Shown here piece after piece: positions 17,903 to 63,621 of a DNA stretch of 64,000 nucleotides. The position numbers and the translations under genes are program-made. The stretch's first letter is position 1, and every line of letters starts with the position of its first letter. Where the stretch lies: contig JAKAKI010000073.1 in NCBI GenBank assembly GCA_021813505.1, positions 45,851 to 109,850 of the forward strand. Direction: 5' to 3'. The notes under the pieces were generated by a model. The model made no database searches. It was not told the origin of the DNA and saw nothing but the letters and a program-made list of their open reading frames with translations. This DNA is from a bacterium (GTDB lineage Bacteria > Zixibacteria > MSB-5A5 > WJJR01).

Positions 17903-18020
17903 GTGTTGACGGGCAGACAAGAGTGTCTGCCCCACTCTTGGTCATGGAAGTTTGAGTCTCTCAGTGGCGCCCACTGCCGTCCGCGCGCTCATCTCCAGGT
18001 GCTGCGGTTTTTCACCGCAC
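17903..18020. repeat. MITE-like palindromic element, family B copy 1 (GTGTTGA... terminal inverted repeats).
   Basis: 'gtgttgacgggcagacaagagtgtctgccccactcttggtcatg...ctctcagtggcgc' is the reverse complement of copies at 43175-43312 and 49065-49170. Confidence 0.7.
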
Positions 18021-18111
18021 CCTTCAGCGACATTCAGAAGCCGGTCAAGGCCTGGTGGCCTGCGCTCGTGAGTTCGTATTCAAAAACCTTCATCGAAGGA
18101 GCAGGAAGGCA

Positions 18112-18870
18112 ATGACGTACAAGATCCTCATTCTCTCGGCTGCGTTCGCGTGCGGGATGGCAGCGTCGGCGGCCGGTGCCGACTCGACCAACGCGACCGG
18201 CCCGAAGCTGGAAGTTCCGGAGACGAACTTTGACTATGGGTACACGGTCCAAAACGCGAAGATCGCGCATGTGTACTGGCTGAAGAACAGCGGGACCGAC
18301 ACGCTTAAACTCAAGGATGTGCGCCCCGGATGCGGATGCACCAAAGCTCCCCTCAAGAAAAAATCGCTGGCGCCCGGCGACAGCACTGACGTCGAGGTCG
18401 TATTCTCGACCGGATCTTACAGTATGTTTGTCCGGAAACCGTCGACCATTCAGTTGGAATCCCCCGGTGACACGCCGCCGATGCTGGCCTTTACAGCGTA
18501 TCCGACGCCAAAACCGGACTCGCTGCGGCCACTGACCTTCACTCCCATGGGCGTGAATCTGGATTCGTCCAAGAAGACCTCCAACATGCAGGCGTGGAAT
18601 TTCAGAGTTCGTGTGAAGAATTGGTCCAACCATGACCTTCGAATCCACCAGGTGTCTCCAGCGCTTTCGCAGATCAATATTGAGGCGCCCAATGGCGCTA
18701 TTGCCGCCGGTTCAGAGGCCACAGTGCGCATCAGAATCGACGCGGAATTGGCTGATTCCACTTTTGCGAAGTCGGTGACATTCGAGGTGTCGGACTCGCT
18801 CCACACGCGATACACGTTGCCGATTGGGAATGAGCCGCCCGCGACGGGCCGCACCCCGGTTGCACATTAG
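18112..18870 (+). CDS. DUF1573-family secreted protein (paralog carrying an intact CGC motif).
   Basis: Signal peptide. 'NFDYGYTVQNAKIAHVYWLKNSGTDTLKLKDVRPGCGCTKAP' aligns with the upstream copy. RBS 'ggagcaggaagg'. Confidence 0.75.
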   Translation: MTYKILILSAAFACGMAASAAGADSTNATGPKLEVPETNFDYGYTVQNAKIAHVYWLKNSGTDTLKLKDVRPGCGCTKAPLKKKSLAPGDSTDVEVVFSTGSYSMFVRKPSTIQLESPGDTPPMLAFTAYPTPKPDSLRPLTFTPMGVNLDSSKKTSNMQAWNFRVRVKNWSNHDLRIHQVSPALSQINIEAPNGAIAAGSEATVRIRIDAELADSTFAKSVTFEVSDSLHTRYTLPIGNEPPATGRTPVAH

Positions 18871-19119
18871 TTGCGAGTACTCGCCCACAAACCGTCCACA
18901 ATTCGGCCACAGCGGCTATATGAGGGCCATCCCCCAACGCGGATAGCCCTCACAGGCCGTTCCGTCTGATCCGCATTCATTGATCCCTGCCTGGTGGACC
19001 AGACCAGTCTGACCGCTGACAAAACTGCATACCACCCGGTGAAATCCCGGCACGGACGGCAGGTGCGGGTTGTTCGCGCCACGGCCCTGTCGTAGATTGG
19101 CGGCGCAGAGGAGACTGTG

Positions 19120-20643
19120 ATGAGTATCGTCCTTGATGGTTCCGGATTGACAGTTGACAAGATCGTCAAAATTGCGCGGCACGGAGAGAAAGTGCAGCTT
19201 CATCCCGACGCGCTGGCGCGCATTAGGACTTGCCGCGCCATGCTGGAGGAAAAGATTCAGGCGCATGAAATCATGTACGGCGTCAATACCGGCATCGGTG
19301 AGTTCTCCGAAGTTGTCCTGAATGACGAGCAGGTCGAGAAATTCCAGCGGTACCTCATTTACAATCACGCGGCGGGTATCGGCGATCCCGCGCCCATCGA
19401 GCATGTGCGCGGCGCCATGGCGGGGCGGATCAATGTGCACGCCCATGGAAACTCCGGCTGCCGCCCTGAGATCACCCTGACTCTGCTGGAGATGCTCAAC
19501 CGTGGCGTCACGCCCGTCGTGTGCCAGAAAGGATCGGTGGGGGCCTCCGGTGATCTGGCGCCGATGTCGCAGATTGCGCTTTTGATGATGGGCGAGGGTG
19601 AAGCATTCTATCAGGGGAAGCGGCTGCCGGGAAAAGACGCTTTGAACAAGGCCGGGATCCCCATCCCGGGATTGCAGGCGCGTGACGGATTGGCGACGAT
19701 CAACGGTTCGAATCTGCTCACGGCGATCAGCGCGATTCACCTCTACGACATGAACCGCTGGTTCAAGCAGGCGGAGATCGCCTGCGCCATGAGTCTGGAA
19801 GCCCTGCTCGCCAATATGAAACCGTACAATGTGCTGTTGCATGAATTGCGCGGGTTCCCCGGGGCGGTGCGTAGCGCCAGGGCGATTATGCAATGCATCG
19901 ACGGCAGCGATTTGATCACCCGGAAGATCAAGACCAAAGTCCAGGATGCGTATTCCATGCGTTCATCTCCGCAGGTGATCGGCGCGGCGCATGATGCGAT
20001 TGCTTTTGCAAGGACGCAGGTTGAGATCGAACTCAACGGCGTCGGGGACAACCCGATCTTTGTGCCGGACAAGAAGCTCACCCTGACCGGCGCGAATTTC
20101 CAGGGGACGCCGGTATCGCTGCCGATGGACTTGGCCGGAACCGCGGTGACGATGGTGTGTGTTCTCTCGGAACGCCGCCTAAACCGGCTGACCAATCCTG
20201 CGTTGAGCGTTGGCCTTCCCCCCTTCCTGACCAAGGGCGCCGGAATGTTCTCGGGGATGATGCTCAGCCAATACACGGCGGACACGCTCATTGTCGAGCA
20301 ACGGATGCTCTCAGCCCCGGCCAGTGTCGGCTCCATTCCCGCGGCCGCGGATCAGGAGGATTTCGTCTCGATGGGCATGAACACGGCCTTGAAGAATGAT
20401 CAGATTCTCGAAAACGCCTACGGCGTATTGGGAATCGAATTCATGGCCGCCGCTCAGGCGCTCGACTTTCGCGAATTCACTCCCGGCCGTGGCGTCTCCA
20501 CCGCCCACTCGATTATCCGCAAGCACATCGCCCATCTCGACGAGGATCGCCCAATGTACCCCGATCACAACATCATGCGCGCAGTCGTCAAGAGTGGGGA
20601 GATCTTGGATGCTGTGGAGGGTGTTGTGGGAAGCTTGGGATAA
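19120..20643 (+). CDS. hutH: MIO-dependent aromatic amino-acid ammonia-lyase (histidine ammonia-lyase family).
   Basis: 'GSVGASGDLAPMS' contains the Ala-Ser-Gly triad that forms the MIO cofactor. About 500 aa with full-length HAL/PAL architecture. Confidence 0.85.
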   Translation: MSIVLDGSGLTVDKIVKIARHGEKVQLHPDALARIRTCRAMLEEKIQAHEIMYGVNTGIGEFSEVVLNDEQVEKFQRYLIYNHAAGIGDPAPIEHVRGAMAGRINVHAHGNSGCRPEITLTLLEMLNRGVTPVVCQKGSVGASGDLAPMSQIALLMMGEGEAFYQGKRLPGKDALNKAGIPIPGLQARDGLATINGSNLLTAISAIHLYDMNRWFKQAEIACAMSLEALLANMKPYNVLLHELRGFPGAVRSARAIMQCIDGSDLITRKIKTKVQDAYSMRSSPQVIGAAHDAIAFARTQVEIELNGVGDNPIFVPDKKLTLTGANFQGTPVSLPMDLAGTAVTMVCVLSERRLNRLTNPALSVGLPPFLTKGAGMFSGMMLSQYTADTLIVEQRMLSAPASVGSIPAAADQEDFVSMGMNTALKNDQILENAYGVLGIEFMAAAQALDFREFTPGRGVSTAHSIIRKHIAHLDEDRPMYPDHNIMRAVVKSGEILDAVEGVVGSLG

Positions 20644-20654
20644 CGATTGGACGA

Positions 20655-20708
20655 TTGCGATTACGAAATGGTGGGCTGAGCCCACCCTACCGGTAGGGTG
20701 GGCTTTGC
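20655..20708 (+). terminator. Tandem GC-rich hairpins (GTGGGCnnnGCCCAC type) after the ammonia-lyase gene.
   Basis: 'ggtgggctgagcccaccc' and 'gggtgggctttgcccacc'. Confidence 0.6.
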
Positions 20709-20760
20709 CCACCTTGGTTTGGTCAAACCGCGAACCTCACGAAACAGCCAGGAATTCTGA

Positions 20761-21903
20761 ATGCTTTACCGCAAGATGCCGGACGCCGATCCTGCCCTGT
20801 CGATTCTGGGCTTCGGATGTATGCGGCTGCCGGTGGACGGTGGCGGGCATATCGACGAGCCTGGAGCGACCGAGATGCTCCGCTGGGCAATCGACCACGG
20901 TGTCAACTACGTGGACACGGCTTATCCCTATCACAACGGCGAGAGCGAACCGTTTGTGGGCCGGGCATTGCAGGATGGTTATCGCAGCAGAGTCCAGTTG
21001 GCAACGAAACTGCCGAGCTGGCTGGTGACGACCCGCGCCGACATGGACAAATATCTCGATGAGCAATTGAAACGGCTTCAGACCGAGCAGATCGACTTCT
21101 ACCTCGTCCACTCCCTGAATCAGGCTTCTTGGGAGAATATGCAACGTCTGGGGATCGGCGAGTTCCTCGACAGTACTATCGCCGACGGACGGATTCGCTG
21201 CGCCGGATTCTCATTCCATGACCAGGCTGGTGTCTTCAAGAAGATCGTCGACGGATACGACTGGACCTTCTGCCAGATTCAGTACAACTTCATGGACGAG
21301 GATTACCAGGCCGGTACCGAGGGGCTCCGTTACGCGGCCGCACGCGGACTGGGGATCGTGATTATGGAACCATTGCGGGGCGGCGTGCTGACGCGTGAGG
21401 TCCCGGCCGTTCAGGACGTATGGAACCGTGCGGCGACGAAGCGCACACTCGCCGACTGGTCACTGCGTTGGATATGGAACCATCCCGAGGTCCATGTCGT
21501 GCTCTCCGGAATGGGCACGTTGGAGCAGGTTCGCGAGAATATCGCCTCCGCCGGCACTGCTACTCCGTCGTGTTTGTCCACGGAGGAACTGAATCTCTTT
21601 GACCTTGCCCGCGAAGAGTATCGCAAGCGAATCAAGGTGCCTTGCACCTCGTGCAATTACTGCATCCCCTGCCCATCCGGCGTGAAGATACCGACATGTT
21701 TCGAGATCTATAATCTGGCTCACATGTATGACGCGGCGGAACGCGCCAAGGGCTTGTATGAATTCATGCTGCGGGCAGGGACATCCAATGGCGCCGGGTT
21801 CGCCTCGCTGTGCGAGAAGTGTGGCGATTGCGAAGCGCTCTGCCCGCAGGGGATTCCGACACGAGAGCGGATCGGTGAGGTGGCGGCGTACTTTGGAAAA
21901 TAG
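20761..21903 (+). CDS. Aldo/keto reductase with a C-terminal 2x[4Fe-4S]-type Cys cluster domain.
   Basis: AKR TIM-barrel N-terminus. C-terminal 'CTSCNYCIPCPSG' and 'CEKCGDCEALCPQG' ferredoxin-like motifs. Confidence 0.8.
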   Translation: MLYRKMPDADPALSILGFGCMRLPVDGGGHIDEPGATEMLRWAIDHGVNYVDTAYPYHNGESEPFVGRALQDGYRSRVQLATKLPSWLVTTRADMDKYLDEQLKRLQTEQIDFYLVHSLNQASWENMQRLGIGEFLDSTIADGRIRCAGFSFHDQAGVFKKIVDGYDWTFCQIQYNFMDEDYQAGTEGLRYAAARGLGIVIMEPLRGGVLTREVPAVQDVWNRAATKRTLADWSLRWIWNHPEVHVVLSGMGTLEQVRENIASAGTATPSCLSTEELNLFDLAREEYRKRIKVPCTSCNYCIPCPSGVKIPTCFEIYNLAHMYDAAERAKGLYEFMLRAGTSNGAGFASLCEKCGDCEALCPQGIPTRERIGEVAAYFGK

Positions 21904-21925
21904 GAAGCAGGACAAAGGACCAAGG

Positions 21926-23875: not shown

Positions 23876-23903
23876 GGTCGTTGGCGTTTCCCCCGGTATC
23901 GCC

Positions 23904-24671: not shown

Positions 24672-24694
24672 CCGCCGGGAAACCAACCTCACTC

Positions 24695-25717: not shown

Positions 25718-25759
25718 TTGGACGAAGTGGACGAAGAGGACAAAGTGGACCAAGTGGAC

Positions 25760-26848: not shown

Positions 26849-26970
26849 CCGGCCGAAACAACCATTCAAGCACCTATGGCGGGCGTGTCATTCCGCTCGA
26901 CACGGTTCTGCCGATTCGCTATCTATGCCGGCAGCGAAGGACTCGAAAGTACCGGACGGAGGTGTTTGGT

Positions 26971-30832: not shown

Positions 30833-30858
30833 CATGAGCTCGAGTGTTTTGCCCATTC

Positions 30859-30930
30859 TGGGAGGGCGAAGCTCCTGCCGAGCCTCTTCCCCGCGCAGAA
30901 AAGAGGTTCGGCAGGAACCTCGCCCTCCCT
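30859..30930. repeat. Family A palindromic terminator-like element (GGGAGGGCGARGCTCCTGCCGAGCC ... GGCTCGGCrGGArCCTCGCCCTCCC).
   Basis: It lies immediately 3' of the permease stop. The same ends recur at 34111, 48857 and 53239. Confidence 0.7.
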
Positions 30931-34085: not shown

Positions 34086-34110
34086 AGTTGGTGGGGAGTT
34101 GCGATGACGT

Positions 34111-34190
34111 GGGAGGGCGAGGCTCCTGCCGAGCCTTGTTCCCGCGCTGAATCACGGCTCGGCAGTCCGCCGAGGCGGATCGCCCTCCCA
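34111..34190. repeat. Family A palindromic terminator-like element.
   Basis: 'gggagggcgaggctcctgccgagcc...cgccctccca' lies immediately 3' of the ABC ATPase stop. Confidence 0.7.
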
Positions 34191-34212
34191 CGCGCAATTC
34201 GGAATTCATAAT

Positions 34213-35841: not shown

Positions 35842-35849
35842 CTTGGTTG

Positions 35850-39156: not shown

Positions 39157-41730
39157 ATGAACGAGAGCGTCAACATCAATCACGCTTGCTGGGCCGCCAT
39201 GCCCACCAGTTTCCGCCTGAGCGAGTGGCTCGGAAGGCGGGGCGGGAGTTGGTGGCAGCGGCTCCTGACACGTTGGGTGCACCGGCGCCGGACCAGTGAC
39301 GGTGCGGAGTGGTTCCCGGTTGTTGAGTATGATCCGTACCGACTGGAAGTTCAGATCGTTGCGCCCCGTGTTCCCCTGCGGTTCCTGTTCACCTTCAAAG
39401 GATCGGTGCCCGCGGATACCGTGAAGCTGGAAACCTGGGCGGACAAACAGTGGCAGAATGTGCCCATCGAGTACACCTGGTCGGCGGAGGGCAAGGACAC
39501 CACGCTGCAAATCCGATTGAACCGGCTGATCGTCACGCAGCGCGTCCGGATGGATTTTGGACCCCGGGAGAATGAATTCGATGCGTTTCTCGAAATCCTG
39601 GTGGCGGACTACCCCTACCGGGATAGGGACAGCGTCCATCGGGCACGCACCGAGATCGATGCCCACAACTACCCGGCGGCGGAACAAATACTGAGAGAAT
39701 ACCTCACGCACGTGCCCAATCACTACATCGCCTCAGACCTGCTGGCGAGGCTGTATCTCGATCAAAACGACTTGGTCAATGCGCAGCGCTGGTCGCTGTC
39801 CGCTCTTGTCGCCAGCGATGGCCGTCGCGGGCGAGACGTCCTGACAGCGACCCACACCGCCGGCGCATCAGACCTGCCGGCCGAGATCGCCCGGCTGCGT
39901 GAAGCGTCGAAGGACTGGGAGCTGGAGAAGCACTATGGCACCGTGTGCCTGCTTTACGAGCAGAATTACTGGCTGGGTTTCGAGCAACTCCATCTGGTAC
40001 GGCGGCGCAAGATCATCGACATCCGGCGCAAGGCGGCGGCCCGGCTGATGCACACAATCCGTTTCCGGTACACATCGCATAACGAAATACTCCAATTCGC
40101 CCGGCTCCGGGTGCTGGGATCCAACGGCACGATACAGGAGGTTCCCAGGGAGCAACTGGCCTTGATCGACAGCCCGGAGAATGACGCATCGATCTTCACG
40201 GAGGAATGGAAGGAAGCGGTGTACACTCTTCCCGAACTGGAGAGCGGCGAAGTGCTGGAGTTGGAATACCATATCCTCCATTCGAACCGATTTGTCACCG
40301 ATGGACGACCGGACTTCTTTATCAAAGCCGACTTGAATCTCGAGCACCCTGTGTGGGAAAGCACTGTGCAGATCAAGTGTCCGCACTCCTGGAACGTCCA
40401 GTGCATCCCCCTCAATGGCGCGCCGCCGCCAGTGCACACGAACAATGACAGTGAATGGCAGTCGTATCAGACGACCGTGCATGATCTGGCGTACGACGCG
40501 TTCGCCACTGAGTCGGAGGAGCGGGGTATGCGCAGCCCGCTCGTGTGCTGCGCCTGGGGCTGGAAAGACTGGGAGGAATTCGGACATGACCGGCGGGAAT
40601 TCTACATCAATCTGCCGGTTGACGAGGTTCCCGAGATTCTCAATACCGCGATGGCCAAGGGAGAAACGGCGCAGGAGCGGCTGTGCCTGGCGTTTGAATG
40701 GATTCGTGACCGGCTCAAGTATGCTTCCCTTCCCTCGGCGAAAAAACGCATCGGGAAGACCGGCACGGCCGAAAAGATTGTCGCGACCGGAGTCGGCGAT
40801 TGCGTGGACCGCGCCTATCTGTTGGGTCTCATTGCGCGGAGTCTCGGTTTGGAATTCGAGTATGTGCTCGCGGCAACCCGGGGCGCTCCCCTCGTGGCGG
40901 AGGTACCGGCGGAGCAATTCGACCACGTCTTCATTCGCGTGCGCAATGGCGATGGCTGGGTTTACCTCGATGGCACTAGCGCCCAGACTCCTTTCGGACA
41001 GCCGCCCTGGGAGCAGCAGGGTACGTTTGTGCTGGGTTTGGGACCACAGATCGGATTAATCGAGGTGCCGGTCGATGATCCGGCAGTGAACCGGCTTGAT
41101 CTTTCGGAATCACTCACCTGTGATGAGCAAGGCGGGATGGCCGGCACATTCGCGATCAGTGCCGCGGGAGTTCTCGGGCGTATTCTGGATCGGCGCTGGA
41201 AGGGCTCATCGATGTCTTATGAGGACCCGGACCGCGCCGCGAAGTTTGCGTTGGGTGAGAACTTCTCCGCCGCTACCCTGGCTGATTGGACCTTTCGGAC
41301 CGATCCTTTGGCGCGCGACTCGTTCGAGTTGGCCGGAAGCCATCGGCGAAACCCATTGGAGGAAATGGGTGGAAAGCGTTTTGGCGTTCTGGAGTGGCAC
41401 TTCCAGGCCGGCATCCCATTCTCGATCTGGAAGGAGCGAATCTGGAAAGACGTGGCGATTCTGCCCCTGACGCTAACGCTTGCATTGAATCTCGATATCC
41501 AACCGCCGCCGGGATGGCGCATCGAAGGGCGTTCCCAGATGACCCATTTCGACAATGAATTCGCCACGGTACTCGAGCATGAGCACTGGGATGGGCCAAA
41601 GCTCCGGATTACCCGCCAGTTGATCGTCAAGCGCCGCAAAGTCACCGGCGCTGAGGTGGAACGGATGCCGGAGTTTCTGCACGCCCTGGAGAGCGCGCAG
41701 AAACTCAGTGTGATGTTGTGCCGGGACTGA
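39157..41730 (+). CDS. Transglutaminase-like cysteine-peptidase domain protein with a DUF3857-like N-terminal region (857 aa).
   Basis: 'ATGVGDCVDRAYLLGLIARSLGL' (Cys), 'FDHVFIRVRNGDGW' (His) and 'VYLDGT' (Asp) give a papain-like TGase triad order. Confidence 0.6.
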   Translation: MNESVNINHACWAAMPTSFRLSEWLGRRGGSWWQRLLTRWVHRRRTSDGAEWFPVVEYDPYRLEVQIVAPRVPLRFLFTFKGSVPADTVKLETWADKQWQNVPIEYTWSAEGKDTTLQIRLNRLIVTQRVRMDFGPRENEFDAFLEILVADYPYRDRDSVHRARTEIDAHNYPAAEQILREYLTHVPNHYIASDLLARLYLDQNDLVNAQRWSLSALVASDGRRGRDVLTATHTAGASDLPAEIARLREASKDWELEKHYGTVCLLYEQNYWLGFEQLHLVRRRKIIDIRRKAAARLMHTIRFRYTSHNEILQFARLRVLGSNGTIQEVPREQLALIDSPENDASIFTEEWKEAVYTLPELESGEVLELEYHILHSNRFVTDGRPDFFIKADLNLEHPVWESTVQIKCPHSWNVQCIPLNGAPPPVHTNNDSEWQSYQTTVHDLAYDAFATESEERGMRSPLVCCAWGWKDWEEFGHDRREFYINLPVDEVPEILNTAMAKGETAQERLCLAFEWIRDRLKYASLPSAKKRIGKTGTAEKIVATGVGDCVDRAYLLGLIARSLGLEFEYVLAATRGAPLVAEVPAEQFDHVFIRVRNGDGWVYLDGTSAQTPFGQPPWEQQGTFVLGLGPQIGLIEVPVDDPAVNRLDLSESLTCDEQGGMAGTFAISAAGVLGRILDRRWKGSSMSYEDPDRAAKFALGENFSAATLADWTFRTDPLARDSFELAGSHRRNPLEEMGGKRFGVLEWHFQAGIPFSIWKERIWKDVAILPLTLTLALNLDIQPPPGWRIEGRSQMTHFDNEFATVLEHEHWDGPKLRITRQLIVKRRKVTGAEVERMPEFLHALESAQKLSVMLCRD

Positions 41731-42895: not shown

Positions 42896-43174
42896 TGGTT
42901 TAAGATCACTGCGCGAACTCTCCGATTGTAGAGGCGGCCCTGTGTGGCCGCCCGTTTCATTGTACTCAACAACCGGGCGCCCACACAGGGGCGCCCCTAC
43001 GCGCGTCAGGCGTCAAGGAATCTGCTGTTGAAGTTGTCTGCGCGCAGAGCCAAACAGCGGATGCTTCGTCGCTTCGCTCCTCAGCATGACATCCGCCGGT
43101 CGTTCATTACAACCTCGCGTGTGATATAGCATCCGTGGCTGCGAGTTGCTGACGTGTGGCCGCGATCTCCGGGG

Positions 43175-43312
43175 CGTGTTGAAAATACCGTGCATCTGGA
43201 GACGAGAGCGCGGACAGGAGTGTCCGCGCCACAGGAGTGTCCGCGCCACTGAGAGACAAGATTTCCCGTGACCAAGAGTGGGGCAGACACTCTTGTCTGC
43301 CCAGTTTTTCAA
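43175..43312. repeat. MITE-like element, family B copy 2, with an internal 17-bp duplication.
   Basis: 'gtgttgaaaa...gacgagagcgcggacaggagtgtccgcgccaca ggagtgtccgcgccact...gagtggggcagacactcttgtctgccc...ttttcaaca'. Confidence 0.7.
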
Positions 43313-43420
43313 CAATCCCCAGAAATCGCGGCCACGCGTCGGTGATCGCCACGGGGTATTGAAGCCGGGCCCCACACAGGGGCGCCCCTACGCCGCTACC
43401 ATTTCTACAGGCTTAATTCT

Positions 43421-48827: not shown

Positions 48828-48856
48828 AGGGGCGTATTGCATACGCCTATCGTGCG

Positions 48857-48948
48857 GGTGGGAGGACGAGGCTCCTGCCGAGCCTCGTTCCCGCGCGGAC
48901 AGTGAATTCGCGCGCGGCAGCGTGGGTCGGCGGGAGCCTCGCCCTCCC
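48857..48948. repeat. Family A palindromic terminator-like element.
   Basis: 'gggaggacgaggctcctgccgagcc...ggcgggagcctcgccctccc' lies 3' of dnaE2. Confidence 0.7.
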
Positions 48949-49064
48949 GAACCCATCCCTCCCGAGTCATAACCACGATAAACGGAAGTCATCCCCGCGA
49001 AAGCGGGGATCCAGTCGCAGGTGTGTCCCTGGATTCCCGCTTTCGGGTGTGTTGAACAGACCCA

Positions 49065-49170
49065 GCATCTACTGACGAGAGCGCGGACAAGAGTGCCCGC
49101 GCCACTAAGAGAAAGGAACCTTCATGACTATGAGTGGGGCAGACACTCTTGTCTGCCCGGGTCTTCAACA
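49065..49170. repeat. MITE-like element, family B copy 3.
   Basis: 'gtgttgaacag...gacgagagcgcggacaagagtgcccgcgccact...gagtggggcagacactcttgtctgccc...ttcaacac'. Confidence 0.7.
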
Positions 49171-49190
49171 CGCCTTTCGCGGGAATGACA

Positions 49191-53188: not shown

Positions 53189-53238
53189 GGATCGTTCGCA
53201 AGGCTTGACCGGAGCTATTCCTATCAGCAACTGCATCT

Positions 53239-53309
53239 GGGAGGGCGAGGCTCCTGCCGAGCCTTCTTCCCGGGCGGCAAAGAGGCTCGGCGGGAGCCTC
53301 GCCCTCCCA
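53239..53309. repeat. Family A palindromic terminator-like element.
   Basis: 'gggagggcgaggctcctgccgagcc...ggctcggcgggagcctcgccctccca' lies 3' of the ADH gene. Confidence 0.7.
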
Positions 53310-53409
53310 TAGCAAGAACGATCTCATCCAAGAGGGATGTACCAAAAGAACTGTCCCTCCTCCCCGATGCGGGAGGAGGGACACGATCATTTTGGAGATG
53401 GCGTTGTTA

Positions 53410-53895: not shown

Positions 53896-54164
53896 TGAAG
53901 CCTCCTGTGGTTGGGAATCAGTTTGATAAACACGAGTATTATACTCGCTTTTCGCGATTCCGGGTATCACTTTTCGCCGATGAGACGGTCAGCCCAGAGG
54001 GCTGACCCCCACATGTCTCGCACCGACACACTCGTGCGGGTCATCCCTCCGGGCTGACCATGTGCAGCCTCGCACGGGAAAGAGGATTTCTGGACATACG
54101 AAAAGGACTTGACGCCTCACCGGCTGGATGAAATCATGCAGATGCAGGGTGCCTTCTGGACAGG

Positions 54165-55052: not shown

Positions 55053-55144
55053 CGACGCCGTATTGACCACTTTGATTAACGGTTCCCTGAATTCGGGGTG
55101 GGAGAGCCCACCCTCAAGCGGACTGTTGAGAGACACAGTTCTCA

Positions 55145-55295
55145 AGCAAGGTGCCACGGACAAGCAGATTCTCCGGCTCTTTGGAGAATCTGCTTGTCCG
55201 TGTCTTCTTCTCACAAACAGAAGAAAGACACGGACAAGGAAGACCGAGCGGAAGAGCCGCTGGGTCTTCCTTGTCCGTGGCACCGAATAGTCAGG
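55145..55295. other. Nested multi-hairpin structured element between convergent genes. Possibly a bidirectional terminator or small structured RNA.
   Basis: 'cacggacaagcagattctcc|ggagaatctgcttgtccgtg', then 'tcttcttct..agaagaaga', then 'cacggacaaggaagacc|ggtcttccttgtccgtg'. The outer 'ggtgccacggacaag/cttgtccgtggcacc' pairs enclose the whole. Confidence 0.5.
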
Positions 55296-55391
55296 CTTTC
55301 GACATGATCAAGGCAGTTCTTCCACAATCCCACATGGGTGGGAATGATGTGCTTCTTCCACACACCCCGCCCAGCGGGGCGAACGCCGAAC

Positions 55392-57131: not shown

Positions 57132-57262
57132 TGTACGCTATGAAGAGGGGGATGGCAATTGACAGGCGTTCGTAGTTGTGCGGCAAGCGCAACTTGATGT
57201 CACTCTCGCGAACGGGGGAATCCTGTGACGTAGTGGCGACTAGGTCCCCGCGTTCGCGGGGA

Positions 57263-57574
57263 TTACGTCCGGAGGGATGGGGATGAGATCAGGAGGGATG
57301 GACTCGGGAGGGCGCGGCCGTCTGCGACCAGGACACGAGCACTCCCCCCGCCGCGGGACGCCTGGCAGGCCAGCAGATCGCTTTTGCCGAGGCGACCGCT
57401 CAAGAACAGGCCAAGACAGCAGAAGGCAGAACCGGTCACCGGATCCTCATCGATCCCGGCTCCGGGTGCGAAGAATCTCGTGATGAAATCGTACTCCGCG
57501 GTCTCCGAACTGCTGGTGACAATGATCCCGCGCACACCCAGTGTCTTGAGCATGGTGAAGGGGCGCCCCTGCAT
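57263..57574 (-). pseudogene. N-terminally truncated PhzF-family (phenazine-biosynthesis-like isomerase) gene remnant.
   Basis: Only the C-terminal ~100 aa are present ('DFITRFFAPGAGIDEDPVTGSAFCCL'). The apparent ATG lies inside the palindromic motif at 57560-57592, 46 bp from the family C repeat. Confidence 0.55.
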
Positions 57575-57619
57575 AGGGCCGCCCCTACGCGTGGCTGCGT
57601 TATCAGGGTCGTATCCACA

Positions 57620-57731
57620 CTTGCGGACAAGGGGCTTTTAGCCCCTTGGCGTCTTGGCTGGCACACGACTATGGGGCTAGAAGCGTCTTGGCTGGCACAC
57701 GACTATGGGGCTAGAAGCCCCTTGTCCGCAA
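57620..57731. repeat. MITE-like element, family C copy 1 (TTGCGGACAAGGGGC / GCCCCTTGTCCGCAA terminal inverted repeats) with an internal 34-bp tandem duplication.
   Basis: 'cttgcggacaaggggcttttagcccctt...(gcgtcttggctggcacacgactatggggctagaa)x2...gccccttgtccgcaa'. Confidence 0.7.
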
Positions 57732-57746
57732 TCGGGCTGGCTCGCG

Positions 57747-58499: not shown

Positions 58500-58708
58500 T
58501 TGATCCGATGGGAAGTTTCATGCTCTGCAAAGAGTCCGGTGTATGTTGCGGCAATGCCATAACCACGTACCGCACCGGTCCGGTGTGCACGCGCATCGCC
58601 ATGAATTCGTCAATCCGCCCAAGGCCGATTGGAAGTTCGATCATGCAGCGTATCTACTGCGGGGTTCGCGCTCATGCAATCACAAAGTCAACTCGTGTCG
58701 GGCCGCCA

Positions 58709-60475
58709 TCACGGACAGCCGGGGGGTGATCCCGGCGTGCACGGATTGCATGGATTGGGACCGCCGGAGAAAGCGGTCGCAATCAGATAGATGACGTCGA
58801 ACACATCAACCATCCCGTTGTTGTTGACATCGCCGCGCGTGGCCGGACACTGGGCATCCTGAATGTCCGAAGCGCCGCTGAACGCAATCCCAATGATTTC
58901 GATGACGTCGAAGACGTCGAGCAAGGCATCTCCTGTGGGGCGCGGGGCGATGTCACCCTGGCTGGGACAATTGCAGAAACTCGCGAACGCCGCCTGCAGA
59001 TTCGGCCTCGGTCCGATATTCCCCGCCGGCGGCATGACCTGGGGCGTGCCGGTTGCGATCAATGTGCTGCGTATAAAGCCGGGCGTGGGCAAAGGCGTGC
59101 CCAATGTCGCCTTCCAATACCCCATGCAACATGCGACCGCACCGGCGACGATCGGCGATGCGCTCGAGGTGCCGGAGAATGTATTCGTGTAGGTGAAGTT
59201 GGGACCATCGAAATTATACCACGAGCCGTAACCAGCGGTCATAACGTCCTCACCCCACCCCTGGAGATCGAACCTGGGCCCGTAGCTCGAAAACGAGATT
59301 CGCTGGAGATCTGTCTCGGGATATGTCCCGCCGGGATAGGCGCCTCCCGCGCCAACGATGATCGCTCCCGAGTTACCATACCACGACATCGCTCCCATAT
59401 TGACGCCGCCATTTCCGCCAGCCTCCACAACGTGAATACCGGAGGCCACGGCGTTGACGATCGCCGCATAGACGCCATTGAAACTCTGAGGGCTGTTGGA
59501 ATAATTCAACCACCACTCGATGGGAATGAAGTTACCGCTGCCAACCGTGTATTCCCATTGCTGCTCAAGAAGAATTACGTCACCGGGAGACAGATTGGCA
59601 ATCGCCACCGCCATGGCACCGGGGACATTCCAACTGGGCGCGGGCAGGCCATAGTACGTTCCGCACGTCTTCAGCGTGGCGGCATAGCAGATGCCGGTCG
59701 TGCCCCAGCCGTTGTTGTCGGAGACCAATTCACCAATAACGGCGGTACCGTGATCCTTTCCATAACCAGGATCGGCAATGTTGTTGTTGATCTGCGACAA
59801 CGGCGCCTGTGTGAGGTCGCCATGGCTGATTCCCCAGGCATACTCGAGGTCACAAACGGTAACGCCGGCACCATTTCCACCCGGCTGTGTCCAGGCATAG
59901 TCCGCACCAATGCCGGATGGCACAAAGCTCGCCACACGGAGATACCCCTGCCAGCCGGTAAAATCCGGGGGCGGATAGGGCGGCGGTGTGGGTTTGGGCA
60001 CGGGCCGTGCCAGCAGTACGCCAGGAAGGGCTTCGAGTTGGCCGCTGATCGCCCAGACATCACTCCCCTTGGGAATGCGGAGGCGGAGGATGTTGTTCAG
60101 ATTGTAAACAGGCTGTCCGGTGTTCGCCTCGCCACGGGCCTGGATCTCATCGAGGCGCACCTCGGGCACATGACTGATCGGCTGCCACTCGACCCAGGGA
60201 AGAGGCTGCAGCACTCCACCAACTCCTTCCAGACCTTGTTTTGATGCAAGGTCGACCGGCAGGCCGCCGCGCAGCCGGACGCGTGACTCCGGCAAGAACA
60301 TCACCTCGATGAGGTCATCCTCTGAAAGATACGGTGCAGCCGCCACCAAGTCCGGGAGCACCACCGCCGCAATTATGAAGCCAAAAAGCAGGATGCCAGA
60401 TTGCCGGATGCTCGAAGTCAGCATCCGTTTCCATGAACGGATTGGAGTGTTCATTTTCGCAACCTCCTGAGACAA
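58709..60475 (-). CDS. S8-family subtilisin-like serine peptidase with a C-terminal double dockerin-like module.
   Basis: His box 'DHGTAVIGE'. Ser box 'GTSSASPIVAG'. Signal peptide. C-terminal 'GDALLDVFDVIEIIGIAFSG' and 'RGDVNNNGMVDVFDVIYLIATAFSGGPNP'. Confidence 0.75.
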   Translation of the reverse strand: MSQEVAKMNTPIRSWKRMLTSSIRQSGILLFGFIIAAVVLPDLVAAAPYLSEDDLIEVMFLPESRVRLRGGLPVDLASKQGLEGVGGVLQPLPWVEWQPISHVPEVRLDEIQARGEANTGQPVYNLNNILRLRIPKGSDVWAISGQLEALPGVLLARPVPKPTPPPYPPPDFTGWQGYLRVASFVPSGIGADYAWTQPGGNGAGVTVCDLEYAWGISHGDLTQAPLSQINNNIADPGYGKDHGTAVIGELVSDNNGWGTTGICYAATLKTCGTYYGLPAPSWNVPGAMAVAIANLSPGDVILLEQQWEYTVGSGNFIPIEWWLNYSNSPQSFNGVYAAIVNAVASGIHVVEAGGNGGVNMGAMSWYGNSGAIIVGAGGAYPGGTYPETDLQRISFSSYGPRFDLQGWGEDVMTAGYGSWYNFDGPNFTYTNTFSGTSSASPIVAGAVACCMGYWKATLGTPLPTPGFIRSTLIATGTPQVMPPAGNIGPRPNLQAAFASFCNCPSQGDIAPRPTGDALLDVFDVIEIIGIAFSGASDIQDAQCPATRGDVNNNGMVDVFDVIYLIATAFSGGPNPCNPCTPGSPPGCP

Positions 60476-60649
60476 ATGCTACCTGTGCTGCCGATACGAT
60501 TGGGCAATCCGCCTCCTCTTTCCGTCGAGCAGGAGTGCTTCGTCTCGGCGGAACGATGCCGGTTCCACCTGCTCCCTTTGGACCTGTCTAAATACAAAGA
60601 TAACGCAGGATGGGAAGTTGACAAGTGGAAATTCTTCGAGTGCCACACT

Positions 60650-60895
60650 GCCTGGGGCCTGTTGAAGAACCTGTCCCCGAGATCGCAGCAGTTGTGTGAG
60701 GGGAAGGTTGCTTCGTCGCTCCCTCCGCTTTCGGTCCGCCGCGGCGGACTCCCCGCAACGACAACTGTGCCTTCGTATTGCCAACGACCAGTGTGATGTC
60801 GTTGCGAGGCGCGGCTCTTTGCGCCGAAGCAATCTCCCCCCTTACATGACTGCCGCCGCTTTTCGGAGGGCTTCTTCAACACGCCCCAAGCCGTG
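60650..60895. repeat. MITE-like element, family D copy 1 (~245 bp, highly structured). It shares GTGTTGAA/TTCAACAC ends with family B.
   Basis: ~85% identity to 63355-63590. Internal hairpin 'cgcaacgacaactgtg...cagtgtgatgtcgttgcg'. The ORFs inside it on both strands are artefacts. Confidence 0.7.
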
Positions 60896-60907
60896 ACGTG
60901 CCCAGAA

Positions 60908-61267
60908 TCAGCTTTTGATTTCGGTGATCCGCGCCTTGACCAGCCTGCGCACCAGCGCCACCGGCAACGGCTTCTCCGGCGGAAACCGGATTGTTCCCTT
61001 GCTGGTATCGTATGCCGCGAGAAGCGCCTTGTGCGCCGACACGACCGAGCCGCTCATCGGGAAGTACGAGCAATGCTTCGCGCTCGCGCTGAATCCGGCA
61101 ATCAGCTTCCCATCAAGCCGAAACGCCGGCATCCCGTAGCTGATGCACTCTTCTGCCTTGGGCGCGGCCGCTTTGATCGTCTGGCGCAGTTTCTCGAGGG
61201 CCGCACGCTTGTCGGGGGACAAGGTGGCGAGATAGGCGTCAGTCGACACAGGGGATGTGCGCGTCAT
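60908..61267 (-). CDS. DUF1801 (YdhG-like) domain protein.
   Basis: 'DAYLATLSPDKRAALEKLRQTIKAAAPKAEECISYGMPAF' matches the DUF1801 pattern. Confidence 0.55.
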   Translation of the reverse strand: MTRTSPVSTDAYLATLSPDKRAALEKLRQTIKAAAPKAEECISYGMPAFRLDGKLIAGFSASAKHCSYFPMSGSVVSAHKALLAAYDTSKGTIRFPPEKPLPVALVRRLVKARITEIKS

Positions 61268-62409
61268 GGATCCCGATCCAGGCTCAATCCCGAGTCACCC
61301 ATCATCCGCAGCATCTGCCGTTTGAATTCCTCGAGGGATGGCAGCGATTCCACCACCTGAACTGAAATATCAAGGGCGTTGGTGAGGGTGCTGAGCGCCA
61401 TCGCCGAGTCCGCGCCGGTGACCCGAATCTCCTGCGGCAGGAAGTTGGCGCTCTCGATTGCTCCCAGCACAACCCGTACCAGAAGGTCGCCCTTCACATC
61501 GGAGGGTTCACCGAGCACCGGTGGAAACGCGAATCCCGATCTGGCATCGGTGGCGATGGCGGCCCGCACGCAAGTCTTACGTTCGCTCTTGCCGCCAAAC
61601 ATCGCACCGCCGTAAAAGTGATCAACTTCCATGATCCCGACGATCCGATGGCTTTTGCTGAGAATGCGTGCGACCCGGTCCTTGTCATAGTTCGCCGGCG
61701 CCAGAGTGGCCAATGGCGACCACTGGGCTGCGGCAAGGCTGATCTCACACATCTGATCAGGGCGTTTCCCAGAGACGAGCGACACCAGGGGATAGGTGTC
61801 CTCTTTGCCCCAATACTCAATCGGAGGATGCGTTAGCATGTGATCGCAGAACTCCAGCACGGTCGCGAGACACAAAGCGAGCTGCCGGCCCTCCTCCTCG
61901 GTGATGTACCAGGGATGGTACCCCGGACGGCCGGCGCGAAACATCGGGCAAATCACGTCTTTGCGGAATGGATGTGAGAAGGCGCGGAGCAGACGGCGGT
62001 CGGGTGTGGTCAGCTCTCCACTGGGCACAAATTCGACGGACACGCCGCGCTGGGACGCTAAGAACTCGCCGGCCGTGATCGGCTGCCCGAGGGCGATTCT
62101 CTTGAACAATTGGTACCCTTCGCGTCCGATGTAGACCTGCAACGAATACACCTGCCCAAGAGCACCCATGACCGAGCAATAGCACATCTCGCCCGAGTCC
62201 GGTTCCTTGACCATTACGAGGTCCTGGTCTGCGAGCAGATCCCACGGGTGAAGCTCATAGAATTCCGCTCCCAGGTCATAGAGCCTTCGCCCAGTGGCTT
62301 TTGTCAGCGGGTTCTCTCCGGCCAGCTCTTTCTCGAAAAACAAGTCCGGGTTAGATGGACTCTTCCCGGATGGCGGTTTGTCTGACTTGCGCACGGTAGA
62401 GGCTCTCAT
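61264..62409 (-). CDS. Hypothetical protein (381 aa), translationally coupled to the DUF1801 gene.
   Basis: ATGA overlap with the downstream gene. Coding periodicity present. No motif recognised. Confidence 0.5.
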   Translation of the reverse strand: MRASTVRKSDKPPSGKSPSNPDLFFEKELAGENPLTKATGRRLYDLGAEFYELHPWDLLADQDLVMVKEPDSGEMCYCSVMGALGQVYSLQVYIGREGYQLFKRIALGQPITAGEFLASQRGVSVEFVPSGELTTPDRRLLRAFSHPFRKDVICPMFRAGRPGYHPWYITEEEGRQLALCLATVLEFCDHMLTHPPIEYWGKEDTYPLVSLVSGKRPDQMCEISLAAAQWSPLATLAPANYDKDRVARILSKSHRIVGIMEVDHFYGGAMFGGKSERKTCVRAAIATDARSGFAFPPVLGEPSDVKGDLLVRVVLGAIESANFLPQEIRVTGADSAMALSTLTNALDISVQVVESLPSLEEFKRQMLRMMGDSGLSLDRDP

Positions 62410-62487
62410 TCAGCGGCCTATGGACCGCCTGTCATTGGGGAAGCATGCGATATGTCGGGGACCGGAGTCAAGTGTGCGCCGCGAATC

Positions 62488-62563
62488 TTGCGGACAAGGG
62501 GCTTCCAGCCCCTTGCGGTCTCGCGCGACAAAGACCAAGGGGCTGGGAGCCCCTTGTCCGCAC
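62488..62563. repeat. MITE-like element, family C copy 2.
   Basis: 'cttgcggacaaggggcttccagccccttg...caaggggctgggagccccttgtccgca'. Confidence 0.7.
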
Positions 62564-62685
62564 ATTCGATTGCTCGGCGCCAAAGAAAAACCCCCGATCC
62601 TTGCGACTCGGGGGCAAATCAACACTTCGGTAGGCTGGTAGCATTCGCGCCAGACAATTTCCCGGCGGAACCCCAGTGGCCAGCG

Positions 62686-63087
62686 TCAGCCGGCCATTTT
62701 CTTCAGCATGTGATCGATAACTTCGCCGTGTTCATGTTGCGGGCTGAACAGTACGACCTCGGCGTCTTTGCCGACTTTGACTGAGTGGCCGGGCGGCCAG
62801 TAGAACAGGTCACCACCCATGATCGTCTCGTGACTCCCGTTGGCGTAGGTGACAGTCAGCTCACCCTGCAGCACATAACCCCAATGCGGAGCCTGGCACA
62901 TGTCGCCCTGCAGCCCTTGGAGCAACGGAGCGATATCCGTACCGGCGCCCAGCGAGAAGTACTCGCCGCCGATCATTCCGTAGCCGGCCGCACTGCCGAA
63001 ATCGGTCTTTTGCCGCGCGACGGCACCGGGCACGTTGATTTTCACCGGGATATCTTGTTTGGCAATTCTCACTTTGTATTCCTCCAT
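62686..63087 (-). CDS. Cupin-domain protein.
   Basis: 'YFSLGAGTDIAPLLQG' and 'HWGYVLQGELTVTYANGSHE' give a cupin beta-barrel pattern. Confidence 0.55.
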   Translation of the reverse strand: MEEYKVRIAKQDIPVKINVPGAVARQKTDFGSAAGYGMIGGEYFSLGAGTDIAPLLQGLQGDMCQAPHWGYVLQGELTVTYANGSHETIMGGDLFYWPPGHSVKVGKDAEVVLFSPQHEHGEVIDHMLKKMAG

Positions 63088-63317
63088 GGCGCCCCGACCA
63101 AATCGGGGTCGCGTGGCGTTAGAGTTGAAGAACGGTATCCGCTAAATCAACACGGATTTGGTCTTGGTTCTATGATCATTTCTTCACATACGGACGTAGG
63201 CCCCACGGCGATGGGGATTTGATTCGGAAAGCCTGGGTGCCCCTCGACCTACAACGGGGGAGCTGCGACATCGACGCGGGAGCAATCATCGCACAACCGA
63301 CTATCAGAATTCATCCC

Positions 63318-63621
63318 AGCCCCGGAGGGGCGGAAGATCGTAGCCCACGGCGCCCGGGCCTGTTGAAAAACTTGTCCTCGAGATCGCGGCAGTTGTGTAA
63401 GGAGCAGGTTGCTTCGTCGCTCCCTCCGCCTTCGGCGGAGCCGCTCCTCGCAACGACAACTGTGCCTTTGCGTTGCCAACAACCAGTGTGCTGTCGTTGC
63501 GAGGCGCGGCTCTTTGCGCCGAAGCAATCTCCCCCTTACACAACTCCCGCTGCTCTTCAGAGGACTTCTTCAACACGCCCGGGCGCCGTGGGCTACGATC
63601 TTCCGCCCCTCCGGGGCTGGG
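63318..63621. repeat. MITE-like element, family D copy 2, with an additional perfect 43-bp outer terminal inverted repeat.
   Basis: 'ccagccccggaggggcggaagatcgtagcccacggcgcccgggc' (63318-63360) is exactly mirrored at 63578-63621. The inner core is homologous to 60650-60895. Confidence 0.75.

What the first reader, a model, noticed from the sequence alone, without database searches (positions are those of the whole stretch)
17903..63621. Two MITE-like families (B and D) share GTGTTGAA/TTCAACAC terminal inverted repeats, suggesting one transposase mobilises both
Family B (~110-130 bp) has copies at 17903-18020, 43175-43312 and 49065-49170. Family D (~245-300 bp) has copies at 60650-60895 and 63318-63621. 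The internal sequences are unrelated, but both begin with '...gtgttgaa' and end with 'ttcaacac...'. D copy 2 additionally carries a perfect 43-bp outer inverted repeat ('ccagccccggaggggcggaagatcgtagcccacggcgcccgggc'), which looks like a nested or composite insertion. All copies are intergenic and strongly self-complementary. No transposase is present in the window, so the autonomous partner is elsewhere.
Basis: seen in the sequence. Interest (0 to 1): 0.6.

Follow-up and report, generated by a model that had tools for sequence, protein, structure and literature searches.

The report
IS5-type MITEs lodged in hairpin loops
The two repeat families are real miniature transposons whose ends match an IS5-family insertion sequence found in other microbes; they are an ordinary kind of mobile DNA, with the twist that they sit in the loops of other hairpin repeats and that one family carries such hairpins.

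Summary
The window comes from a Zixibacteria MAG. It carries three copies of family B (about 125-148 bp) and two of family D (about 225-232 bp), all intergenic. Their interiors are unrelated, but both families end in the inverted repeat GGGC(G/C)TGTTGAAAAAC, which is 16-17 nt rather than the 8 nt reported. D's left end reads CTGTTGAA, and B1's ends are decayed.

The MITE reading is supported.
- At least three more interior families in other Zixibacteria MAGs carry the same ends.
- Copies lie at non-orthologous sites.
- A syntenic relative lacks B2 and B3.
- Paralogous empty sites are rebuilt exactly by removing the element and one copy of a 5-bp target duplication.
- A 1.19-kb IS5-family element (DUF772 + DDE_Tnp_1) in a viral contig and dozens of metagenome contigs has identical ends, the same G/C variant at position 5, and 5-bp duplications.

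No autonomous copy was found in any Zixibacteria sequence held, so mobilisation by this transposase is inferred.

- B's interior is an inverted pair of a GTGG/GTAG-headed REP hairpin. Its exact 22-mer occurs across about nine phyla, sometimes beside RAYT genes.
- The elements sit preferentially in the loops of other REP-like hairpins. This explains D2's "outer" repeat.

Verdict: a new member of a known kind.

The parts
17899..18022 (-). Family B copy 1, a decayed MITE. Its ends are GGGCGTGTTGAC (5 nt deleted) and GGGTGCGGTGAAAAACC. It contains REP hairpin 2 at 17911-17932.
43172..43319 (+). Family B copy 2. Ends are GGGCGTGTTGAAAATA and GGGATTGTTGAAAAAC. REP hairpin 1 (GCGCGGACAGGAGTGTCCGCGC) lies at 43208-43229. 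A 17-bp internal tandem duplication spans about 43214-43247. REP hairpin 2 lies at 43281-43302.
43151..43171 (.). Left arm of the host palindrome around B2 (GACGTGTGGCCGCGATCTCCG). An uninterrupted version of this hairpin exists at L039:1991.
   Evidence: (I13)
43320..43340 (.). Right arm of the host palindrome around B2 (CAGAAATCGCGGCCACGCGTC).
   Evidence: (I13)
49046..49174 (+). Family B copy 3. It is flanked by the 5-bp direct repeat TTTCG (49041-45 and 49175-79), inside the loop of the hairpin GGATTCCCGC / GCGGGAATGAC (49031-40 and 49180-89). REP hairpin 2 lies at 49137-49158.
57199..57223 (-). Paralogous empty site for B3. The same composite repeat unit (57202-57329 matches 48925-49052) carries an uninterrupted hairpin, ggattcccccgttcgcgagagtgac.
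   Evidence: (I4, I8)
60655..60886 (+). Family D copy 1. Ends are GGGCCTGTTGAAGAAC and GGGCGTGTTGAAGAAG. The interior is a three-hairpin scaffold (TTGCTTCG..CGAAGCAA; CCGC..GCGG; CTCGCAACGAC..GTCGTTGCGAG).
63356..63580 (+). Family D copy 2, 87% identical to D1.
63315..63355 (.). Left arm of the palindrome that hosts D2. Each arm gives a sub-threshold match to Rfam Acido-Lenti-1 (29.7 bits against a gathering score of 37).
   Evidence: (I2)
63581..63621 (.). Right arm of the palindrome that hosts D2.
   Evidence: (I2)
55121..55331 (+). Probable sixth, degenerate element with related ends (GGACTGTTGAGAGAC and GGGATTGTGGAAGAAC). Its cargo is two long hairpins.

Best explanation
Families B and D are non-autonomous miniature transposons (MITEs) of one IS5-family lineage.

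Shown:
- Both families carry the 16-17-nt terminal inverted repeat GGGC(G/C)TGTTGAAAAAC.
- This repeat is identical to the ends of a 1.17-1.19-kb insertion sequence that encodes a single DUF772 + DDE_Tnp_1 transposase.
- Both the MITEs and the IS are flanked by 5-bp target duplications.
- Sites differ between genomes, and empty sites exist.

Inferred:
- A DDE transposase of this lineage binds the shared ends and cuts and pastes any DNA between them, making a staggered 5-bp cut at the target. It would be encoded elsewhere in the genome, already lost, or supplied by a transient element.
- This is why interiors as different as B, D and three further families in other Zixibacteria share one pair of ends.

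Cargo: B carries an inverted doublet of a GTGG-headed REP hairpin, that is, a REPIN-like unit of a separate tyrosine (RAYT/HUH) system. D carries a three-hairpin scaffold.

Target: in Zixibacteria the elements land preferentially in the loops of other REP-like hairpins. Each copy is therefore wrapped in an outer inverted repeat that differs from copy to copy. D2's 41-nt arms are the extreme case.

Age: the window's copies are old (70-87% identity, decayed ends in B1) and are probably no longer moving.
For: Shared ends
- Enrichment in the window: 16 matches against 1.6 expected.
- The same ends occur on B, D, F1, F2 and G interiors in MAGs JACRMA01, JAVHPP01 and JAGVEK01.

Autonomous relative
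- L093:4313-5504 has perfect 16-nt ends, the duplication AAAAT, and interrupts a phage gene.
- Pfam finds DUF772 and DDE_Tnp_1 above their cut-offs.
- JGI names homologues 'IS5 family transposase', and 1873 homologues lie mostly on 1-2-kb contigs.
- 80 metagenome loci carry the end variants GGGCGTG and GGGCCTG. Six have a perfect 5-bp duplication, plus L137 with a 1-nt shift, out of 41 loci where both ends were located.
- The same IS end is joined to different flanks in L120 and L121.
- The ends drift as the transposase diverges: GGGAGTGTTGCAAGA at 52% identity (L117) and GGSCCNGTCGGRAAAG in a more distant clade. The exact match therefore ties the MITEs to the L093 clade.

Duplications on the MITEs
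- 4 of 18 are perfect and 4 of 18 have one mismatch, against 1.3% and 10.5% for mismatched pairings.

Empty sites rebuilt exactly
- L030:2072 gives GTGGCCGCGATCTCTGATCGCG, which equals L039:1991.
- L062 gives CCACTGACTTCAGTCAGTGG, which equals L039:348 and L039:970.
- B3 gives GGATTCCCGCTTTCGCGGGAATGAC, the canonical hairpin, and has a paralogous empty unit at 57199-57223.

Independent insertions
- The loop orientation is opposite in L062 (TTCA) and L040 (TGAA).

Absence in relatives
- The relative L071 has genes about 77% identical at the nucleotide level and conserved gene order, but lacks B2 and B3.
- Flanks in other MAGs are unrelated.

Palindromic flanks
- 9 of 18 have an exact inverted repeat of at least 7 nt, against 14% (at 6 nt or more) for mismatched pairings.
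Against: - No transposase of this lineage was found in the window, in 8.4 kb beyond its right end, or in about 110 kb of loci from other Zixibacteria MAGs.
- The IS-bearing contigs have 31-54% GC and carry no GGCAGACA-type REPs, so they come from other organisms.
- Ten of 18 MITEs, including B1, B2, D1 and D2, show no clean duplication. In B2 and D2 the flanks are inverted rather than direct.
- The first G of the end makes 4-bp and 5-bp duplications hard to tell apart in several copies.
- IS copies in other hosts do not sit in palindromes. Loop targeting may therefore reflect tolerance or a local transposase variant rather than the lineage as a whole.
- 5 bp is not the duplication length I recall for the named IS5 subgroups.
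Confidence: 0.8

Rival explanations
1. B (and by extension D) are REPINs: REP doublets copied by a RAYT tyrosine (HUH) transposase through single-stranded DNA. On this view the shared ends are just the outer part of the long REPIN hairpin.
For: - B's interior is two inverted copies of a GTGG-headed 8-bp-stem hairpin.
- The exact 22-mer lies next to Y1_Tnp genes in L051, L031 and L041.
- REP doublets with similar spacers but without the shared ends occur in Acidobacteria and Ignavibacteria loci.
- One host hairpin family (GTGCCACTGAC..) flanks a RAYT gene in L039.
Against: - D, F1, F2 and G carry the same ends but no GGCAGACA hairpin.
- The ends are identical to those of a DDE insertion sequence.
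- 5-bp target duplications are present. From established knowledge of IS200/IS605, Y1 transposases do not make them.
- No RAYT is in the window.
Confidence: 0.1
2. The elements are conserved structured RNAs or regulatory hairpins (terminators, attenuators) kept by selection, not mobile DNA.
For: - The folds are very stable.
- B2 and B3 lie between converging genes, where terminators are expected.
- The arms around D2 give a sub-threshold Rfam hit to Acido-Lenti-1.
Against: - No Rfam family reaches its gathering score.
- B2 and B3 are absent from the orthologous sites of a syntenic relative.
- Copies occur in both orientations and in tandem, convergent and divergent gene contexts.
- Target duplications and empty sites exist.
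- The ends match those of an IS.
Confidence: 0.04
3. The shared ends are themselves a short palindromic repeat (GGGCGTGTTGAAAAACC..GGTTTTTCAACACGCCC). Its loop is a hot spot into which REP doublets and other hairpins insert. B and D are then filled shells rather than units that move as a whole.
For: - Every cargo seen is itself a palindromic repeat family that also occurs alone. One example is GGGAGGGCGAGGCTCCTGCCGAGCC, found in the window at 30857, 34108, 48857 and 53236 and inside the shell at L048:4711.
- Di Nocera et al. 2013 describe REP dimers of Halothiobacillus neapolitanus as inserted within a very similar 41-bp palindrome.
Against: - No empty shell was seen in the window or the loci.
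- B copies with nearly identical interiors sit at many unrelated sites, each with its own duplication. The filled unit therefore moved as a whole.
- This idea explains the origin of the cargo rather than replacing the MITE mechanism.
Confidence: 0.06

Closest known systems
IS5-family insertion sequences and the MITEs derived from them
   Same: - Short terminal inverted repeats that begin with GG.
- A single DDE transposase (DUF772 + DDE_Tnp_1).
- An element of about 1.2 kb, with short non-coding derivatives that keep only the ends.
- The end core TTGTTGAA also occurs in the IS903 inverted repeat GGCTTTGTTGAATAAATC. I recalled that repeat from memory and found it next to aph(3')-Ia in plasmids.
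   Different: - The transposase falls below NCBIfam's curated cut-offs for every named IS5/IS1182 model.
- The nearest plasmid-borne relative is 52% identical, and similarity to IS903 is marginal.
- The target duplication is 5 bp. The named IS5 subgroups as I recall them make 2-4, 8 or 9 bp (from memory, not tested).
REP / REPIN-RAYT systems (Bertels & Rainey 2011, PMC3116915; Di Nocera et al. 2013, PMC3733652, family GTAG-20 with a GTGG head in Opitutus terrae)
   Same: - B's two internal hairpins are GTGG/GTAG-tagged palindromes in inverted orientation.
- The same 22-mer flanks Y1_Tnp genes in other phyla.
   Different: - The moving unit here is bounded by IS5-type ends and makes target duplications.
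- D has the ends without these REPs.
- The exact REP 22-mer is shared across about nine phyla. REPIN-RAYT systems are described as mostly vertically inherited (abstract of bioRxiv 10.1101/2022.05.22.493013).
Insertion sequences that target REP hairpins (Tobes & Pareja 2006, cited in PMC3733652; ISPpu9, PMC8450116; IS1397 and ISKpn1, from memory)
   Same: Insertion into the central part of extragenic palindromes with a short duplication.
   Different: - Here the insertions are MITEs of an IS5-family lineage. As I recall, the known cases are IS3- or IS110-family elements.
- IS copies of this lineage in other hosts show no palindromic target.
REP dimers of Halothiobacillus neapolitanus inside the palindrome GGGaaGCTT-GAAAaACC..GGTaTTTCgAAGC-gCCC (Di Nocera et al. 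2013, section 7)
   Same: A REP doublet enclosed by an inverted repeat of nearly the same sequence pattern (GGGnnGnTTGAAAAACC).
   Different: It was described as REP insertion into a target palindrome. No transposase, target duplication or other cargo was reported. I could not examine that genome.

Membership tests
MITE (non-autonomous DDE transposon) | Short, with no coding capacity | tested here: met
   Elements are 84-232 bp, intergenic, and made of hairpins.
MITE (non-autonomous DDE transposon) | Terminal inverted repeats shared within and between families | tested here: met
   16-17-nt ends give 16 matches against 1.6 expected in the window and occur on five interior families.
MITE (non-autonomous DDE transposon) | Target-site duplication | tested here: met
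   8 of 18 have at most 1 mismatch in 5 bp, against 12% for mismatched pairings. It is clean for B3 only among the window's five copies.
MITE (non-autonomous DDE transposon) | Many copies at non-orthologous sites, with empty sites | tested here: met
MITE (non-autonomous DDE transposon) | Ends match those of an autonomous element | tested here: met
   L093 and about 40 metagenome IS copies have the same ends and 5-bp duplications.
MITE (non-autonomous DDE transposon) | Autonomous partner in the same genome or lineage | tested here: not met
   None was found in the window, in the 8.4 kb beyond it, or in the held Zixibacteria loci. Whole genomes could not be searched.
IS5 family (for the partner IS) | DDE_Tnp_1 catalytic domain with the N-terminal DUF772 domain | tested here: met
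   Pfam gives 43.4 and 61.4 bits, both above the cut-offs.
IS5 family (for the partner IS) | Membership of a named IS5/IS1182 subgroup | tested here: not met
   All NCBIfam IS5 and IS1182 models score below their curated cut-offs.
REPIN-RAYT | GTAG-like head plus a short palindrome, paired in inverted orientation | tested here: met
   This holds for B's interior only.
REPIN-RAYT | A cognate RAYT gene flanked by the same REP in the same genome | tested here: not met
   No Y1_Tnp is in the window. The association is seen in other phyla.
REPIN-RAYT | Insertion without a target duplication | tested here: not met
   B copies carry 5-bp duplications.
Known structured RNA (Rfam) | A match at the family's gathering score | tested here: not met
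   There are 0 matches at gathering threshold and only sub-threshold hits otherwise.

The most novel reading that the evidence does not exclude
An IS5-family DDE transposase lineage in Zixibacteria recognises extruded hairpins and inserts specifically into the loops of REP elements. Its MITEs in turn carry REPIN doublets as cargo. Two unrelated mobile systems, DDE cut-and-paste and HUH/RAYT single-strand copying, are thus nested in each other and may spread each other. This would include carrying an almost invariant REP hairpin between phyla.
Probability: 0.2. Interest if true: 0.55.

Novelty: new member of a known kind. Interest (0 to 1): 0.35.

Why it matters
- It gives a concrete, testable pairing of a MITE set with an uncharacterised but very abundant IS5-family clade (same ends, 5-bp duplication).
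- It explains why Zixibacteria intergenic regions, and MAG contig breaks, are full of nested palindromes.
- It offers an alternative, MITE-based reading of the published REP dimers inside palindromes.
- For genome annotation, these stretches should be masked as mobile DNA and not called as small ORFs or RNAs.
- If loop targeting is a property of the transposase, it would be a useful case of structure-directed DDE integration.

Tried and rejected
- The exact pattern GTGTTGAA(N60-90)TTCAACAC finds nothing in the window, because the ends are imperfect.
- Rfam at gathering score returns nothing. At a permissive E-value the miRNA-like hits on palindromes are chance matches.
- Searches for the Zixibacteria-resident IS all came up empty:
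  - tblastn of the L093 transposase against everything held;
  - the 8.4 kb beyond the window's right end;
  - a library-wide phmmer search, followed by a homologue search with a high-GC relative. That clade has different ends, GGSCCNGTCGGRAAAG;
  - the metagenome scan, which returned only contigs of 31-54% GC without Zixibacteria-type REPs.
- D2's outer arm has no other copy in the held sequence.
- A literature search for the 22-mer and for the end sequence found only unrelated primers.
- Two look-ups by exact protein failed because the ORF start differs from the called gene.
- I first read the duplication as 4 bp (TTCA, TTTC). I revised it to 5 bp after seeing the IS copies.

Full report
**Source of the window**

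The window has 59% G+C. The same sequence occurs in NCBI assembly GCA_021843385.1 and in several ENA and Logan contigs. A cluster mate of its MFS transporter, more than 90% identical, is named 'candidate division Zixibacteria bacterium'. I therefore treat the window as part of a Zixibacteria MAG.

**Checking the observation**

All five copies are present. A self-comparison gives these coordinates:
- B1: 17899-18022, inverted relative to the others.
- B2: 43172-43319.
- B3: 49046-49174.
- D1: 60655-60886.
- D2: 63356-63580.

B copies are 70-85% identical and D copies 87%. B and D interiors are unrelated.

The consensus is GGGC(G/C)TGTTGAAAAAC.
- With up to three mismatches it matches 16 times in the window, against 1.6 expected, and no shuffle reaches 16. 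Nine of the ten element ends are among the matches.
- D's left end reads CTGTTGAA.
- B1's ends are decayed.
- B2 carries a 17-bp internal tandem duplication.

D2's outer inverted repeat is perfect for 45 nt, of which 4 nt belong to the element's own end. The DNA folds are far more stable than shuffles.

All copies are intergenic. No transposase is encoded in the window.

**Anatomy of family B**

Read in the plus orientation, B consists of:
- the left end;
- about 20 nt of spacer;
- hairpin 1, GCGCGGACAGGAGTGTCCGCGC followed by CAC;
- a spacer of about 35 nt;
- GTG followed by hairpin 2, GGGCAGACACTCTTGTCTGCCC;
- the right end.

Hairpin 1 is close to the reverse complement of hairpin 2, so the interior is an inverted doublet.

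I scanned one genome per species for the exact 22-mer of hairpin 2. It turned up in 64 loci from MAGs labelled:
- Acidobacteriota
- Verrucomicrobiota
- Planctomycetota
- Zixibacteria
- Ignavibacteria
- Kiritimatiellota
- Armatimonadota
- Methylomirabilota
- Burkholderiales

It is usually present several times per genome and is almost always preceded by GTGG or GTAG. In three loci it directly abuts a gene that passes Pfam's Y1_Tnp threshold: L051, L031 and L041.

This is the signature of a REP element with its RAYT. Di Nocera et al. (PMC3733652) describe GTAG-tagged REP families in these phyla, including a GTGG-headed family in Opitutus terrae. B's cargo is therefore a REPIN-like unit.

One caution applies. 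These loci were retrieved by the 22-mer, so its invariance in alignment A1 is by construction. The conservation of the ends is not.

**The ends are a separate module**

In the Zixibacteria loci the same ends bound other interiors:
- a D copy at L029:5705-5929;
- two families that share D's three-hairpin scaffold, F1 at L030:2072-2286 and F2 at L030:2416-2622;
- a family whose cargo is the palindrome GGGAGGGCGAGGCTCCTGCCGAGCC.., at L048:4711-4881. This palindrome also occurs on its own four times in the window (family D1);
- a shortened B at L029:5493-5576.

REP doublets in Acidobacteria and Ignavibacteria lack these ends.

**Target duplications and empty sites**

Every element is wrapped in a further inverted repeat that differs between copies. 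These outer repeats are independent hairpin families that also occur uninterrupted:
- GTGCCACTGAC-TTCA-GTCAGTGG, at L039:348 and L039:970, where the two copies flank a RAYT gene;
- GTGGCCGCGATCTCTGATCGCG, at L039:1991;
- GGATYCCCGC-TTTC-GCGGGRATGAC, at many sites including window 49012 and the paralogous unit at 57199-57223.

Removing the element and one copy of a 5-bp direct repeat rebuilds these hairpins exactly. This works for L062, for L030:2072 (with one mutated base in the repeat) and for window B3 (TTTCG).

Across 18 elements:

| Mismatches in the 5-bp repeat | Observed | Mismatched left/right pairings |
|---|---|---|
| 0 | 4 of 18 | 1.3% |
| 1 | 4 of 18 | 10.5% |

Nine of 18 have an exact flanking inverted repeat of at least 7 nt, against 14% (at 6 nt or more) for mismatched pairings.

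The loop orientation is opposite in L062 and L040. The same hairpin family was therefore hit independently.

B1, B2, D1 and D2 show no clean duplication. In B2 and D2 the flanks are inverted, not direct.

**Presence and absence**

The relative L071 has genes about 77% identical at the nucleotide level and the same gene order (465-aa gene, MFS, DnaE2, ImuB, DUF72).
- It has only 136 bp between MFS and DnaE2, filled with other hairpins and no B3.
- It has no B2 downstream of DUF72.

B sites in the other Zixibacteria MAGs share no flanking genes with the window.

Assemblies also break or switch at the elements:
- NCBI contig JAKBXG010000084.1 starts at D2.
- A Logan unitig jumps into another B copy inside B3.

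**The autonomous relative**

A scan of viral contigs for the 16-mer end found L093:4313-5504. This is a 1192-bp element with perfect ends and the duplication AAAAT. It interrupts a phage gene and holds one 319-aa ORF.
- Pfam assigns the ORF DUF772 and DDE_Tnp_1.
- NCBIfam's IS1182 and IS5 models score below their cut-offs.
- The protein database holds 1873 homologues, mostly on 1-2-kb contigs, and JGI names them 'IS5 family transposase'.

A metagenome scan returned 80 loci at 51-84% identity.
- Where both ends were located (38 of the 80), the elements are mostly 1.13-1.20 kb, with the more distant relatives up to 1.38 kb.
- The ends read GGGCGTGTTGAAAAA and, often on the other side, GGGCCTGTTGAAAAA. 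This is the same G/C variant that distinguishes D's left end.
- Including L093, six have perfect 5-bp duplications, and one more does with a 1-nt shift. Many others lack one, plausibly because short-read assemblies join flanks of different copies.
- L120 and L121 join the same IS end to different flanks.

The ends change as the transposase diverges:
- GGGAGTGTTGCAAGA at 52% identity (L117);
- GGSCCNGTCGGRAAAG in a more distant, high-GC clade (L118 and L119).

The 16/16 match therefore ties the Zixibacteria MITEs to the L093 clade specifically.

**What was not found**

No member of this clade was found in any Zixibacteria sequence I could reach. The IS-bearing contigs are of lower GC and lack the REP hairpins. 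IS copies with clean duplications do not sit in palindromes.

**Conclusion**

B and D are MITEs of one IS5-family lineage.
- Shown: shared ends, 5-bp duplications, empty sites, non-orthologous distribution, and an IS with identical ends.
- Inferred: mobilisation in trans by such a transposase in this lineage, and a preference for hairpin loops as an intrinsic property.
- Not resolved: how REP doublets and other palindromes became the cargo. A similar arrangement was reported without explanation for Halothiobacillus neapolitanus, where REP dimers lie inside GGGaaGCTT-GAAAaACC..GGTaTTTCgAAGC-gCCC.

The finding is a sound and well-observed instance of a known kind of element. The added interest is the nesting with REP/RAYT systems.

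Noticed in passing
window 17911-17932, 43281-43302, 49137-49158; loci L007-L070: The exact 22-mer GGGCAGACACTCTTGTCTGCCC, headed by GTGG or GTAG, occurs in 64 loci of MAGs from about nine phyla, usually several times per genome. In L051, L031 and L041 it abuts Y1_Tnp (RAYT-like) genes. Identity across phyla is unexpected for REPs, which are described as vertically inherited. Mis-binning of some MAG contigs cannot be excluded.
   Followed up: partly
L031 2403-4769: A RAYT-like gene with its flanking REP hairpins lies inside one uninterrupted 788-aa reading frame. The N- and C-terminal parts of that frame look like one host enzyme, so this may be an in-frame insertion of a whole REP-RAYT unit into a gene.
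   Followed up: no
window 30857-30929, 34108-34192, 48857-48948, 53236-53309: A palindromic repeat family, GGGAGGGCGAGGCTCCTGCCGAGCC..GGCTCGGCAGGAGCCTCGCCCTCCC, has four copies in the window. The same palindrome is the cargo of a shared-end element in L048:4711-4881 and also occurs in L071.
   Followed up: partly
window 48925-49052 and 57202-57329: A composite unit of about 130 bp, made of several different hairpin repeats, is present twice in inverted orientation, like a mosaic (BIME-like) cluster. One copy received B3.
   Followed up: partly
window 57620-57731 and 62482-62568: Another palindromic family, TTGCGGACAAGGGGCTTnnAGCCCCTTG. The first site includes a perfect 34-bp tandem duplication at 57649-57716.
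   Followed up: no
window 42971-43002, 43362-43393, 57559-57590: GTAG-headed hairpins of a different sequence (GCGTAGGGGCGCCCCTGTGTGGGCGCCC), probably another REP class. Two of them bracket B2.
   Followed up: no
window 55121-55331: A probable sixth, degenerate element with related ends. Its cargo is two long hairpins (GGTGCCACGGACAAG..).
   Followed up: partly
window 63318-63358 and 63578-63618: Each arm of the palindrome around D2 gives a sub-threshold match to the Rfam motif Acido-Lenti-1 (29.7 bits, gathering score 37).
   Followed up: partly
window 12957-13079, 15350-15445, 20670-20713, 39791-39852, 53987-54059: Further isolated long palindromes lie in intergenic DNA. The genome is unusually rich in them.
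   Followed up: no
L090 5613-5763: A 151-bp MITE with the same perfect ends but yet another interior, in a low-GC viral contig. The lineage has therefore spawned MITEs in other hosts too.
   Followed up: partly
L071 3340-4090: In the closest syntenic relative, a RAYT gene is flanked by a different hairpin (GTCAGCCCAAGGGCTGAC-like). REP-RAYT systems therefore differ between related genomes.
   Followed up: no
window 17128-17447 and 18203-18525: B1 lies between two tandem DUF1573 paralogues that are about 65% identical at the DNA level.
   Followed up: no
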